This document shows positions 17,780 through 48,499 of a DNA stretch of 64,000 nucleotides, piece by piece (the stretch's first letter is position 1; every line of letters starts with the position of its first letter). The stretch is taken from assembly GCA_951406725.2 (NCBI GenBank), contig OX597835.1, forward strand, positions 45,694,001 through 45,758,000, in the 5' to 3' direction. Position numbers and translations under genes: made by a program. Source of the stretch: Octopus vulgaris. Lineage: Eukaryota. The notes beneath the pieces were generated by a model, which made no database searches, was not told the origin of the DNA, and saw nothing but the letters and a program-made list of their open reading frames with translations.

Positions 17780-17932
17780 CGACGAGCTTCTTTCCGGCTA
17801 CCAAACCCACTCACAAAGCTTTGGTAGGCCCGAGGCTGTAGTAGAAGACACTTGCTCATGATGCCATGCAGAGGAATTGAACTCGGAACCATGTGGTTGG
17901 GAAGCAGACTTCTTAGCACACAGCCATTCCGA
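17779..17932 (-). mobile_element. SINE family 1 head module
   Basis: acgacgagcttc...gtagaagacacttgc...ggaaccatgtggttgggaagc...cacacagcc. Confidence 0.8.
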
Positions 17933-20391: not shown

Positions 20392-20563
20392 AATATATAC
20401 GACAGGCTTCTTTCAGTTTCCGTCTACCAAATCCACTCACAAGGCATTGGTCGGCCCGGGACTATAGCAGAAGACACTTGCCCAAGATGCCACGCAGTGG
20501 GACTGACCCCGGAACCATGTGGTTGTTTAGCAAGCTACTTACCACACAGCCACTCCTGCGCCT
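20131..20563 (-). mobile_element. tRNA-derived SINE family 1, full length
   Basis: Near-identical to 46567-46985 and 5064-5460; inserted in a TA tract. Confidence 0.92.
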
Positions 20564-20694
20564 ATGTATATATACATAAATGTAACAAAAACGCAATAGA
20601 GGCCAATAAAACAGGAGAAACAACAATTAAAAGGACAGGGAGAAAAAGTCGGGTCATTGTGGCCTATATACATATGTATATATCTGCGTCTGTA

Positions 20695-27377: not shown

Positions 27378-27825
27378 AGTATGTATGTATGTATGTGTAA
27401 ATGTGTCTGTATGTGTGTAGGTAGGTAGGTAGGTAGATAGGAATGTAGGTACGTAGGTATGTACGTATGTATGTATGTAGGCAGGTAGGTAGGTAGGTAC
27501 GTATTTATGTATGTATGTATGTATGTATGTGTAAATGTGTCTGTATGTGTGTAGGTAGGTAGGTAGGTAGATAGGAATGTAGGTACGTAGGTATGTACGT
27601 ATGTATGTAGGCAGGTAGGTAGGTAGGTACGTATTTATGTATGTATGTATGTATGTATGTGTAAATGTGTCTGTATGTGTGTAGGTAGGTAGGTAGGTAG
27701 ATAGGAATGTAGGTACGTAGGTATGTACGTATGTATGTAGGCAGGTAGGTAGGTAGGTACGTATTTATGTATGTATGTATGTATGTATGTATGTAGGTAG
27801 GTAGGTAGATAGGTAGGTAGGTATA
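27378..27825. repeat. Higher-order tandem repeat (about 130-bp unit, about 3 copies) built from TATG/TAGG microsatellites
   Basis: The marker gtaaatgtgtctgtatgtgtgtagg...gataggaatgtaggtacgtagg...ggcagg...gtacgtattt recurs at ~27397, 27531 and 27661. Confidence 0.9.
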
Positions 27826-30649: not shown

Positions 30650-30653
30650 TCTG

Positions 30654-30703
<50 letters not shown>

Positions 30704-30705
30704 CA

Positions 30706-30736
<31 letters not shown>

Positions 30737-30793
30737 ATCTATATATCTATCTATCTTTCTATATCTATCTATCTATCTATCTATTTATCTATC
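30650..30793. repeat. (TCTA)n array, 5' flank of the Tx1 LINE
   Basis: Direct inspection. Confidence 0.95.
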
Positions 30794-32266
30794 GTATTGA
30801 CTCTTGAGCCACTACTGCGGAAGCTGGCGACTCTAAGGGGCATCCCGCGAGAATTGGGATGCGGGACGAGCGTGTCTGCATACGCGGACGACGTCACCGT
30901 CATAGTGTCTAGCCACGAGCACATCGAGCTGGTCGGTGAGACACTGAAAAACTACGAAGCGGTGACAGGAGCGAAAATCGACCGGGAAAAGTCAGTGGGC
31001 TTGCGACTAGGCACCTGGAGAAGCAAGCCCATGCCGTCCACCAGCGCCTCCGTCGTGGGACGCTGGACCGACGGCCCGGTTGAGTTGCTCGGGGTCTGGT
31101 TTGGTCCGGACCTCCAAGTGGAGAAGAACTGGAACGAGATAACGAGTAGGGTGGTCACTCTCGCCCGGCAATGGGCCGAGAGGAAACTGTCCCTAAAAGG
31201 TCGAGCGGAGGTGGCGAACACGTACATCGCGTCCGTCATCTACTACCGCCTGACCGTCGTACCTTGTCCCGACCCTACCATCACCAAACTACAACGCATC
31301 CTCTTTCGCTTCTTGTGGAAAGGATGCGTCCCGATGGTCAGGCGATCCATTTGCTGTCAACACCCGTTAAAAGGAGGGCTGGGCATGCCGTGGTTGATGA
31401 TGCGCAGACACGCGCTGAGACTGCGACATCTCTGGCTCTATGTAGACGACGGTGAACAGGTGTGGTCGCCGTTTGTGAGGCACGCTTTCCCGCAGCTCGT
31501 CTCCATGACCGAACTGCAGTCGTGGATCAAAAAGAGGCCGAGGAAGGGCGAATGGCACCGCGAGTGTCGCGTTGCTCTCAAGCAACTCTGCCGTCCTGGG
31601 TCGACCTTAAGTGACTTCAACACAACCAAAGCATTCTATAGGGGTTTAGTGGAGGGGAGGTACGACGACGAGCTCGGGGCGAACCTGGACGTCGACGAGG
31701 AGTACCTGACCCGCCTGTTCAGGACGACTTTCGGGCCAGGGCCCATGGACAACTTCCAGAGATCCCTGGCCTGGCAGTGCTACCGAGAAGCGCTACCCGT
31801 TCGGGATAAGCTCTACAGACACGGCTCGAGAAACACGGGGCCGACCTGCCCGAGATGCGGTCAGAGCGACGAAACCGTTCTGCACGCACTCGTTCAGTGT
31901 CCAACAATTTCCGACCTGTGGGCTTATGTCGAACAACTGCTGTCACGTGTGGGACGAGTCGGTTTATCAGCTGAGTCTATCGTCAATATTGTCACGCCTC
32001 CTTCCTTCAAACGGGAAGGAAGAGCTATTTTCATCATCCTTGTGGCTATGGCGAAAGAATGTATCTGGTGGACGCGTCTGAAAGGATTGGAGACAAACAC
32101 TTTCCTCTCTGGTCAATCTCTCATCAACTTCTTCAAGTACCACTTGAAAAGGAAAGTGAGAGTAGAGAGGCAAGTTTTGTCTAGCGAATGTTTTAAAAAA
32201 AGATGGGTGAATGTAGCAAGAATGGCACGTATGAATGACGAAGCCACCTTGAGCATAGTCCTATGA
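30794..32266 (+). CDS. Tx1/L1-type ORF2 fragment: RT C-terminal domains and C-terminal zinc finger (no start codon; 5'-truncated)
   Basis: 490 uninterrupted codons: VLTLEPLLR, SAYADDVTV, GAKIDREKS, LLGVWFG, W..RKLSLKGRA.V.N, GGLGMP, CPRCGQSDETVLHALVQC. Confidence 0.9.
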   Translation, partial: VLTLEPLLRKLATLRGIPRELGCGTSVSAYADDVTVIVSSHEHIELVGETLKNYEAVTGAKIDREKSVGLRLGTWRSKPMPSTSASVVGRWTDGPVELLGVWFGPDLQVEKNWNEITSRVVTLARQWAERKLSLKGRAEVANTYIASVIYYRLTVVPCPDPTITKLQRILFRFLWKGCVPMVRRSICCQHPLKGGLGMPWLMMRRHALRLRHLWLYVDDGEQVWSPFVRHAFPQLVSMTELQSWIKKRPRKGEWHRECRVALKQLCRPGSTLSDFNTTKAFYRGLVEGRYDDELGANLDVDEEYLTRLFRTTFGPGPMDNFQRSLAWQCYREALPVRDKLYRHGSRNTGPTCPRCGQSDETVLHALVQCPTISDLWAYVEQLLSRVGRVGLSAESIVNIVTPPSFKREGRAIFIILVAMAKECIWWTRLKGLETNTFLSGQSLINFFKYHLKRKVRVERQVLSSECFKKRWVNVARMARMNDEATLSIVL

Positions 32267-32560
32267 ACCCAGAAATCGAAAACAGAGAGTTGCTTATTTG
32301 CAAAAAAAAAAAAAAAAAAAAAGAAATATAAAATGTGACTTCATTGACCGAGGTTACCGTGGTCTTTTCCGTAGGCTTTTCTTTCCACGGGTAAACCTCA
32401 CCTGTCCTCCCCTTTACACTTCATATTGACATTTCTGTGATAACGATCCCTATTGATCAATTTTTTTTTTTTTTTTTTTTTTCCTCTCCCCCTTTTTTTA
32501 ACCCCCCTTTTTTTGTCCTCCTTCTCTCCTTTTACGATCCCTTTTGATCGAAACTCCCCC

Positions 32561-32595
<35 letters not shown>

Positions 32596-32666
32596 ATTCA
32601 AAAGAAAAGCTCTACCTTGTAATTTGTTCTATCTGTGTGCAGCCCTGTGTGGCTAATAAAGAAACA
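30794..32666 (+). mobile_element. 5'-truncated Tx1/L1-clade non-LTR retrotransposon
   Basis: GC-rich open RT fragment followed by a pyrimidine-rich 3' UTR ending ccctgtgtggctaataaagaaaca; (TCTA)n on both sides. Confidence 0.92.
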
Positions 32667-32714
<48 letters not shown>

Positions 32715-32716
32715 CA

Positions 32717-32747
<31 letters not shown>

Positions 32748-32756
32748 ATCTATCTA

Positions 32757-32812
<56 letters not shown>

Positions 32813-32814
32813 CA

Positions 32815-32845
<31 letters not shown>

Positions 32846-32858
32846 ATCTATATATCTA

Positions 32859-32944
<86 letters not shown>
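32667..32944. repeat. (TCTA)n array between the two LINE copies
   Basis: Direct inspection. Confidence 0.95.
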
Positions 32945-32946
<2 letters not shown>

Positions 32947-33512
32947 GTCTAGCGAATGTTTTAAAAAAAGATGGGTGAATGTAGCAAGGATGGCACGTAT
33001 GAATGACGAAGCCACCTTGAGCATAATCCTATGAACCCAGAAATTGAAAACAGAGGGTTACCCACTTGCAAACAAATGTGGTAACATATAACAATATTGA
33101 CCAAGGTTACCGTGGTCTTTTTCGTAGGCTTTTCTTCCCACGGATAAACCTTACTTGCTTTCCCCTTTACACCATACATCATAACACTGTGATACACGAT
33201 CCCTATTGATCGTTTTTTTTCCTCTTCCCCTTTTTTCCCCTTTTTTCTTCTTTTTTCATTTCTCTTTTCCTTTGTTCCTTTTCCTTTTCTTTTTTTTATT
33301 TTTCTTTTTCTTTTTCTTTTCTTTCTTTCTTTATTTATTTTGTTCTTTTCTTCCCTTTTACGATCCCTCTTGATCGAAAACCTACGCCACCCCTTTTTGT
33401 TTTTTTTTTTTTTGTTTTTTTTTGTTTTTTGTTTTTCTCATCCCCCAAAAGAAAAGCTCTACCTTGTAACTTGTCCCATCTGTGTGCAGCCCTGTGTGGC
33501 CAATAAAGAAAC

Positions 33513-33513
<1 letters not shown>
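32945..33513 (+). mobile_element. Second, more truncated copy of the same Tx1-like LINE (last ~90 nt of ORF plus 3' UTR)
   Basis: ttgtctagcgaatgttttaaaaaaagatggg... matches 32177 onward; ends ccctgtgtggccaataaagaaact followed by (TCTA)n. Confidence 0.92.
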
Positions 33514-33566
<53 letters not shown>

Positions 33567-44426: not shown

Positions 44427-44527
<101 letters not shown>

Positions 44528-44620
44528 TCTACATATATACATACATACATACACACACACACATATATATGTGTGTGTGTGTGTGTGTATATATGTATCT
44601 ACATATATACATACATACAT

Positions 44621-44653
<33 letters not shown>

Positions 44654-46566: not shown

Positions 46567-46985
46567 CTCTTTACTCTTTTACTCTTTTACTTGTTTCAGT
46601 CATTTGACTGCGGCCATGCTGGAACACCGCCTTTAGTCGAGCAAATCGACCCCGGGACTTATTCTTTGTAAGCCCAGTACTTATTCTATCGGTCTATTTT
46701 GCCGAACCGCTAAGTGACGGGGACGTAAACACACCAGCATCGGTTGTCAAGCAATGCTAGGGAGACAAACACAGACACACAAACACACACACACATACAA
46801 ATATATATATATACATATATGCGACAGGCTTCTTTCAGTTTCCGTCTACCAAATCTACTCACAAGGCATTGGTCGGCCCGGGGCTATAGCAGAAGACACT
46901 TGCCCAAGATATAACGCAGTGGGACTGAACCCGGAACCATGTGGTTGGTTAGCAAGCTACTTACCACGCAGCCACTCCTGCGCCT
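46567..46985 (-). mobile_element. tRNA-derived SINE family 1, full length
   Basis: Near-identical to 20131-20563. Confidence 0.92.
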
Positions 46986-47722: not shown

Positions 47723-47955
<233 letters not shown>

Positions 47956-48499
47956 CTTCCTTTAGTTCCCGCCTACCAAATTCACTGACAAAGCTTTGGT
48001 CAGTTCGATCCTAGTGTTGATGACACTTGCCCAGGTGCAATGCAGTGGGATTGAACACAGAACTATGCTGTTGAAAAGCAAGCGTCTTACTTCATTGCTA
48101 TATCTGCGCCTAAAATCTTGAAGGGATATTTTAGTTACTATTTTATAACTTGTTCACTAAGTGCCCCAATATGTTTTCATACATTCAGCATTTGTTGTTA
48201 AATTCTTTTTTTATCGAAATCTCGTTCTTATTGTTATAAAATCGTGTTGAGGTAGTAATATATATAAAAAAACTGTCTAATTAATATAATGAATTCAAAT
48301 TTTGAGAAATTTTATGGTATTTTGAAGACGATTACACTGATTCTAGTACTCAGTTGGTACTTATTTTATCAGCCTCGAAAGGAAGAACGCCTAAGTCGAC
48401 CTGAGTGGAATTTTAAATCAGAACGTAAATGTCTAATTGGTATATTGATAGCAAAGAACAAACATATGCTTAGTCAAATATTTAGCAATATTGATTTCG

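What the first reader, a model, noticed from the sequence alone, without database searches (positions are those of the whole stretch)
30650..33565. Tx1-clade LINE apparently specific for (TCTA)n/(GATA)n microsatellites: two insertions in one array
Seen: both copies have (TCTA)n on both sides and the same orientation. Their 3' junctions are in the same register (aataaagaaac(a/t)|tatctatc, no poly-A). Truncation points differ and the UTRs are diverged, so they are separate events rather than a tandem duplication. The 490-codon ORF is uninterrupted, suggesting recent activity. Known: Tx1 families are often sequence-specific, including microsatellite-targeting Kibi (TC)n and Koshi (TTC)n. Inference: a GATA-tetranucleotide-targeting family; I cannot confirm whether it has been described.
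Basis: partly seen in the sequence, partly recalled or inferred. Interest (0 to 1): 0.8.

Follow-up and report, generated by a model that had tools for sequence, protein, structure and literature searches.

The report
Octopus LINE nested in GATA repeat
Two separate, truncated copies of a very abundant L1/Tx1-type jumping gene sit in the same register inside one GATA repeat of a likely octopus genome, which likely means this family prefers GATA repeats as its landing site, a probably new target for a known kind of site-choosing element.

Summary
Observation confirmed. Two same-strand, 5'-truncated copies of an L1/Tx1-group LINE (30794-32665, with an open 490-codon RT/zf-RVT frame; 32945-33512) lie between three (TATC)n blocks. 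Both 5' junctions read TATC|element. Both 3' ends read AATAAAGAAAC+1 base|TATC, with no poly(A).

The blocks on either side of copy 1 share a locus-specific variant pattern (exact 86- and 103-bp matches) that no other TCTA array in the window has. So they are one array, not fresh tails. Copy 2's UTR variant recurs in another sequencing run, so it is a different subfamily, not a local duplicate. The family is very high-copy in 4 of 4 runs laid.

Sister-clade families end just after AATAAA without poly(A) (0 of 61 ends) and stack at short target-like spacers, not GATA.

Best reading: a (TATC)n-preferring Tx1-like family, perhaps primed by read-through (UAUC)n RNA (0.65). Not shown: genome-wide specificity (no genome held; 0 of 10 displayed 5' loose ends were TCTA, an inconclusive sample) and strict Tx1 membership. 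My searches found no GATA-targeting Tx1 in print; Repbase was not searchable.

The parts
30651..30793 (+). (TATC)n array block A1, 5' flank of copy 1; carries the variant signature TCCA(TCTA)3TCCA(TCTA)3TATA once
   Evidence: no element 3' end upstream of it
30794..32665 (+). LINE copy 1, 5'-truncated inside the RT domain (1872 bp)
30794..32266 (+). C-terminal 490 codons of ORF2 (end of RT, thumb region, zf-RVT), uninterrupted, stop TGA
   Evidence: 62-82% identity to its eight closest homologues
32267..32665 (+). 3' UTR of copy 1: conserved blocks between A and T runs, two short CGATC-N6-GATCG-type hairpins, AATAAA at 32655-32660
   Evidence: hairpin at 32520-32560 z -4.4; its copy-2 twin z -5.3; terminal 100 nt not structured, z +1.1 and +1.4
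32667..32944 (+). (TATC)n array block A2 between the copies; carries the signature twice; 86-bp and 103-bp exact matches to A1
32945..33512 (+). LINE copy 2, truncated to the last 90 coding bases plus 3' UTR (568 bp), a different subfamily; AATAAA at 33502-33507
33514..33566 (+). (TATC)n array block A3, perfect, 3' flank of copy 2, followed by degenerate TCTG/CCTG units

Best explanation
These are two 5'-truncated copies, from different subfamilies, of a high-copy L1/Tx1-group LINE lying in the same register within one (TATC)n array, and they likely landed there because the family prefers (GATA)n DNA. Likely mechanism (inferred): the element's APE-type endonuclease nicks the GATA strand at a fixed phase, which the junctions place at or next to GATA|GATA. 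AATAAA sits 6 bases before the junction, so the transcript would be cleaved and polyadenylated a few units into the array. It would then end in (UAUC)n, which can pair with the nicked (GATA)n end and prime reverse transcription upstream of the poly(A). That would explain the missing poly(A) and the fixed phase. Early termination gives the 5' truncations, and any target-site duplication is hidden in the repeat. Shown: anatomy, registers, one array, two subfamilies, high abundance. Inferred: endonuclease, nick site, RNA end, annealing, family-wide preference.
For: All four junctions are in the TATC|TATC phase (the two 3' ends with one extra base), and copy 2's 5' junction has no microhomology. 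A1 and A2 share a 36-nt variant signature found 3 times in the window, all in A1/A2 and in 0 of 13 other TCTA blocks, so copy 1 interrupts a pre-existing or duplicated array. A1 has no element end upstream, so it is not a tail. Copy 2's UTR variant exists elsewhere (X1, 12 contigs), and copy 2 carries the alternative bases at 32221 and 32258 that dominate in most runs. The chance estimate is low once phase is counted. Full-length relatives carry APE+RT+zf-RVT and match human L1 ORF2p best among solved structures (E 9e-69). The sister clade (33-row set, SH-aLRT 99, quick tree) also lacks poly(A) (0 of 61 ends) and re-inserts at short fixed spacers; in L013 an 18-nt spacer recurs at both array ends with 2 mismatches. 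Tx1 families with (TC)n, (TTC)n, (TTCC)n and (TTTC)n targets are published (PMC4494074).
Against: One locus only. In one search, 0 of the 10 displayed 5'-side loose ends are (TCTA)n. By eye, 8 are diverged element sequence and 2 (X1 30875, X3 30951) are neither element nor TCTA. Only 24 of 2,930 were shown, and contigs like human DNA (GATA repeats are common there) are dropped silently, so this is weak. The sister families are not GATA-associated: no (TATC)4 in any of 41 loci. In one sister family the 13-nt sequence after the end is absent at 2 of 2 array starts (L012, L021), so sequence after AATAAA can be element-borne. Another repeat family in the window ends in varied microsatellites, once (TATC)18 at 47881-47952, so tails do create such arrays in this genome. 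Without the phase term, chance gives up to 3.5 doubly hit arrays at 5e4 copies. The element's own endonuclease was not recovered.
Confidence: 0.65

Rival explanations
1. The family inserts into many AT-rich or simple-repeat sites, (TATC)n being only one, or has only a weak preference through RNA-DNA microhomology of an element-borne (TATC)n tail. This locus is then a favourable tail of the distribution.
For: The genome is saturated with microsatellites (158 TRF rows in 64 kb). The family is very abundant. Two displayed 5' loose ends are non-TCTA, non-element. Element-borne 3' sequence is seen in a sister family. LINEs with microsatellite tails that do not match their targets are published (Bov-B, PMC13295347; octopus RTE with a microsatellite 3' UTR, PMC9115989).
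Against: Both 5' junctions are in the same phase as the 3' junctions, and two subfamilies hit one array of about 470 bp.
Confidence: 0.22
2. The element tends to insert next to its own copies, as its sister families do in head-to-tail arrays, and the GATA array is only the spacer.
For: 57 of 61 sister-family 3' ends are followed by another same-strand copy. That sample is biased, because these contigs were binned together, and arrays may also grow by recombination.
Against: Copy 2 has no 5' head to target, 278 bp of array separate the copies, and the first insertion still had to choose the array.
Confidence: 0.08
3. Chance, local duplication, or an assembly artefact.
For: The higher-order repeat in A2 could be an assembly or slippage product. 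No laid contig spans the stretch.
Against: The copies differ in truncation point and subfamily, and both sequence types exist in independent runs. The chance estimate is 0.002-0.05 per genome.
Confidence: 0.05

Closest known systems
Kibi (TC)n and Koshi (TTC)n of teleosts; crocodilian Tx1 families in (TTCC)n/(TTTC)n
   Same: L1/Tx1-group LINE inserted within a short tandem repeat on both sides (PMC4494074 passages and section 15; PMC3812793 passages)
   Different: The target here is (TATC)n, not a pure pyrimidine repeat; the host is a likely octopod. Relationship to Kibi/Koshi was not tested because their sequences were not obtainable.
Sister-clade Tx1-like families in loci L001-L039, L042, L044 (animal-type contigs inside a bacterial MAG); nearest named protein is from the cuttlefish Acanthosepion pharaonis (P0031)
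   Same: 40-43% identical over the ORF2 C-terminus; sister clade; 3' end a few bases after AATAAA; no poly(A); repeated same-strand insertion
   Different: Pure head-to-tail arrays with 13-18-nt non-repetitive spacers, a terminal hairpin before AATAAA, and no GATA
Other microsatellite-targeting non-LTR elements: Waldo (ACAY), Mino (AC), Dong (TAA), Togen (TG); telomeric Tx1-1_ACar
   Same: Use of a simple repeat as landing site
   Different: Other clades or other repeats; none listed with GATA/TATC in the passages read
L1-Tx1 repeats annotated in Octopus vulgaris (80 families, 56 Mb; 13 recently active families with 421 insertions)
   Same: Probably the annotation class this family falls in (PMC13282606)
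   Different: That paper has no occurrence of 'target' in its main text and reports no insertion preference. Identity with any of its families was not testable.

Membership tests
L1 group non-LTR retrotransposon (L1/Tx1) | non-LTR RT followed by a C-terminal zinc-binding domain, with 5' truncation | tested here: met
L1 group non-LTR retrotransposon (L1/Tx1) | N-terminal APE endonuclease in ORF2 | tested here: inconclusive
   Absent from both truncated copies and from the 70% relative P0035; present (PF03372) in relatives at 37-45% that match L1 ORF2p and L1-EN structures
Tx1 clade | RT groups with named Tx1 elements rather than with vertebrate or plant L1 | tested here: inconclusive
   Quick tree only, 72 rows, window row 49% filled. 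It falls away from the Arabidopsis L1-like row and within a 67-row set that includes a U1-inserted element (L040); no named Tx1 or vertebrate L1 reference was available
Tx1 clade | two-ORF full-length structure | not testable with these tools
   No full-length copy of this family was retrieved
Microsatellite-specific Tx1 (Kibi/Koshi type) | same repeat on both flanks of a copy, in a fixed phase | tested here: met
   2 of 2 copies in the window
Microsatellite-specific Tx1 (Kibi/Koshi type) | target in more than 20% of copy flanks genome-wide (criterion of PMC4494074) | tested here: inconclusive
   One search showed 24 of 2,930 loose ends, 0 of 10 5'-side ones TCTA; not a census
Kibi/Koshi lineage itself | target (TC)n, (TTC)n, (TTCC)n or (TTTC)n | tested here: not met
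   Flanks are (TATC)n
Microsatellite-specific Tx1 (Kibi/Koshi type) | endonuclease cleaves the repeat specifically | not testable with these tools
   Needs the protein and a nicking assay

The most novel reading that the evidence does not exclude
A high-copy, still-active octopod Tx1-like family is strictly (GATA)n-specific, primes on read-through (UAUC)n RNA instead of poly(A), and duplicates a long stretch of the array (about 90-140 bp here) at each insertion, so that it actively lengthens and rearranges the GATA microsatellites of octopus genomes; its lineage switched from short unique targets to a microsatellite within cephalopods.
Probability: 0.2. Interest if true: 0.6.

Novelty: new variant of a known kind. 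Interest (0 to 1): 0.38.

Why it matters
If the preference holds genome-wide, this adds a new target (GATA/TATC) and a new phylum-level host to the short list of microsatellite-targeting Tx1 elements. Its sister families use different, non-repetitive targets, so the pair would allow a direct look at how APE-type LINEs change target: through the endonuclease loop or through RNA-target pairing. It also bears on why octopus genomes hold so much simple repeat, and warns that GATA marker loci there may carry LINE insertions. It does not introduce a new kind of element.

Tried and rejected
No whole genome is held. An exact 34-nt 3'-end pattern gave 0 hits in metagenome and viral contigs. Alignment A1 gave no confirmed relative among 100 metagenome, 67 GTDB and 31 viral candidate stretches; A2 gave none among 78 viral ones.

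Read laying on the coding part did not yield a flank census. No RNA holder was on record, which says nothing on expression.

I screened 231 homologous proteins for SIYL-type read-through from (TCTA)n into truncated copies. None of the close relatives (50% or more) had it, and only isolated 4-residue matches occurred in distant ones. This is uninformative, because the gene calls start at ATG.

The ESM Atlas gave only generic RVT_1/zf-RVT clusters. Earlier scan notes: nothing. Element 3'-end motifs as primers in papers: 5 unrelated hits.

Terminal hairpin as in the sister families: not found in the window copies. Tandem duplication of one insertion: rejected (different truncation, different subfamily). 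A2 as a pure fresh tail: rejected (locus-specific signature). A clean long target-site duplication for copy 1: not shown; 86 bp match exactly from the 3' junction, but the last ~50 bp of A1 need three substitutions and a slippage. The careful tree did not finish; the quick tree was used. The supplement of PMC4494074, with its target alignments and possibly more targets, could not be read.

Full report
1. Observation. The window is microsatellite-rich animal DNA (158 TRF rows). Between 30651 and 33566 lie array A1, copy 1 (30794-32665), array A2, copy 2 (32945-33512) and array A3. Copy 1 has an open 490-codon frame with the end of an RT domain and zf-RVT. Copy 2 starts at the base equal to 32177 of copy 1. 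The copies differ at 2 of 90 coding bases and 4 of the last 67, and align at about 75% in the UTR middle. Both 5' flanks end in TATC; both 3' ends read AATAAAGAAAC, one base (A or T), then TATC. There is no poly(A).

2. One array, two events. A1 and A2 share the signature TCCA(TCTA)3TCCA(TCTA)3TATA, once in A1 and twice in A2, with exact matches of 103 and 86 bp. It occurs in 0 of the 13 other TCTA blocks of the window. So A2 is not a freshly made tail, and copy 1 interrupts an array that existed before or was duplicated on insertion. Nothing element-like lies upstream of A1. In one search, laid on the coding stretch of copy 1, a loose end from 12 contigs of run X1 equals copy 2 at 33060-33089 (30 of 30, by eye). 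Copy 2 is therefore a separate subfamily, not a decayed duplicate. A rough chance model (assumed 1e4-5e4 copies, 2.5 Gb) gives 0.14-3.5 doubly hit arrays per genome, or 0.002-0.05 with junction phase.

3. Family and host. Named homologues are from Argonauta (63%), Octopus sinensis (47%), Acanthosepion, and a short 97%-identical piece in an O. bimaculoides gene model. The host is very likely an octopod; the species was not determined. The stretch is held by 20 of the 24 listed runs, from 11 studies, one being a possible source. In 4 of 4 runs laid, 11,538-39,325 contigs map; 13,274 of 39,325 in X2 are 99% or more alike, and summed depth tends to rise towards the 3' end. This points to an abundant, young, 5'-truncating family, but it is not a copy count. 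Full-length relatives (37-45%) carry APE, RT and zf-RVT and match human L1 ORF2p best. In a quick tree of 72 rows (the careful search was unfinished; the window row is 49% filled), the window groups with four close relatives (SH-aLRT 99), sister to a 28-row clade (33 rows, 99), apart from the plant L1-like row. No named Tx1 or vertebrate L1 was included, so 'L1/Tx1 group' is shown and 'Tx1 clade' is likely but untested.

4. What relatives do. Alignment A2 retrieved 45 loci from GTDB genomes; 41 lie on contigs of one MAG that consist of animal-type LINE arrays. Of 61 distinct 3' ends there, 0 have 8 or more A within 25 nt, 0 are followed by TATC, 57 are followed by another same-strand copy and 4 by unmatched sequence (one of the 4 labelled truncated looks full-length). 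They end a few bases after AATAAA, then show a 13-18-nt spacer. In L013 the spacer stands at both ends of the array with 2 mismatches, like a duplicated target. In L012 and L021 it is missing at the array start, like element-borne sequence. These copies are not independent and the bin is biased. A more distant relative (L040) sits in a U1 snRNA gene with a 157-159-bp duplication and an A8 tail. So site preference, loss of poly(A) and long duplications all occur in this group, but GATA association was seen only in the window.

5. Genome-wide test. It could not be done. No genome is held, and searches found nothing. One search displayed 24 of 2,930 loose ends. Of the 10 on the 5' side none is TCTA; by eye 8 are diverged element and 2 are neither. 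Contigs break at repeats and human-like ones are dropped, so this is weak, but it does not support strict specificity. The window also shows that TCTA arrays can follow another retroposon-like family whose other copies end in TA/TG repeats (47881-47952).

6. Mechanism. Most likely (0.65) the family prefers (TATC)n. Inferred steps: a nick on the GATA strand at a fixed phase; a transcript that, with AATAAA 6 bases from the end, is cleaved a few units into the array (the usual 10-30-nt distance is my own knowledge) and pairs by (UAUC)n with the nicked strand; truncation at the 5' end; a duplication hidden in the repeat. Endonuclease-determined targeting is published for Tx1L (PMC1950540, passages), and 3'-repeat pairing is discussed as an open hypothesis for other LINEs (PMC13295347, passages). 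Rivals: broad or weak simple-repeat preference (0.22), self-adjacent insertion (0.08), chance or artefact (0.05).

7. Literature. Seen as passages unless noted: PMC4494074 (passages and section 15; supplement not readable), PMC3812793, PMC4640811, PMC13282606 (passages and its one supplement, by term search), PMC8967140, PMC10294476, PMC3747384, PMC10088271, PMC13295347, PMC9115989, PMC1950540. Kojima and Fujiwara 2004 was seen only as cited there. Nine searches found no GATA/TATC-targeting Tx1 and no target description for octopus L1-Tx1. Repbase Reports and subscription papers are outside the library, and figure 3 of PMC4494074, which lists targets, is not held, so prior description cannot be excluded.

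8. Verdict. The feature is real, and is best read as a probably new target variant of a known kind. Local evidence is good; family-wide specificity is open.

Noticed in passing
L001-L039, L042, L044 (record CAXXMW, handle G001): A GTDB species-representative MAG labelled uncultured Arenicella holds 71 matches to this LINE ORF2 on animal-type contigs made of near-pure head-to-tail arrays of mostly intact 6.4-6.8-kb elements (16 matches on one 91-kb contig), without poly(A), with 13-18-nt spacers and a variable terminal hairpin before AATAAA. Host contamination of the MAG, and an unusual tandem-array lifestyle for L1/Tx1-group elements.
   Followed up: partly
L040 3036-10170 (contig in a Metamycoplasmataceae MAG): Tx1-like element inserted in a U1 snRNA gene with an exact 157-159-bp target-site duplication and an A8 tail; the contig is microsatellite-rich and looks like animal host DNA.
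   Followed up: partly
window 47881-48111 (-), with related copies near 5306-5461, 17791-17915, 20406-20564, 46828-46964: A dispersed SINE-like repeat whose copies end in different microsatellites (TA/TG in most, (TATC)18 in one), showing tail-born arrays in this genome.
   Followed up: partly
window 32667-32944: Array A2 contains the variant unit twice, so a higher-order duplication happened apart from the simple insertion of copy 1; cause unexplained (slippage, earlier insertion scar, or assembly).
   Followed up: partly
P0033 and P0049: Octopus bimaculoides gene models begin with fragments of this ORF2 (97% and 83% identical), one fused to a Rho GEF 10-like model; probably annotation artefacts.
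   Followed up: no
window 27379-27790 and 44500-44640: Higher-order repeats built from microsatellite mixes (130-bp unit x3.1 at 98%; 70-bp unit x2 at 100%), showing that block duplications of variant arrays also occur elsewhere in the window where no copy of this LINE lies.
   Followed up: no
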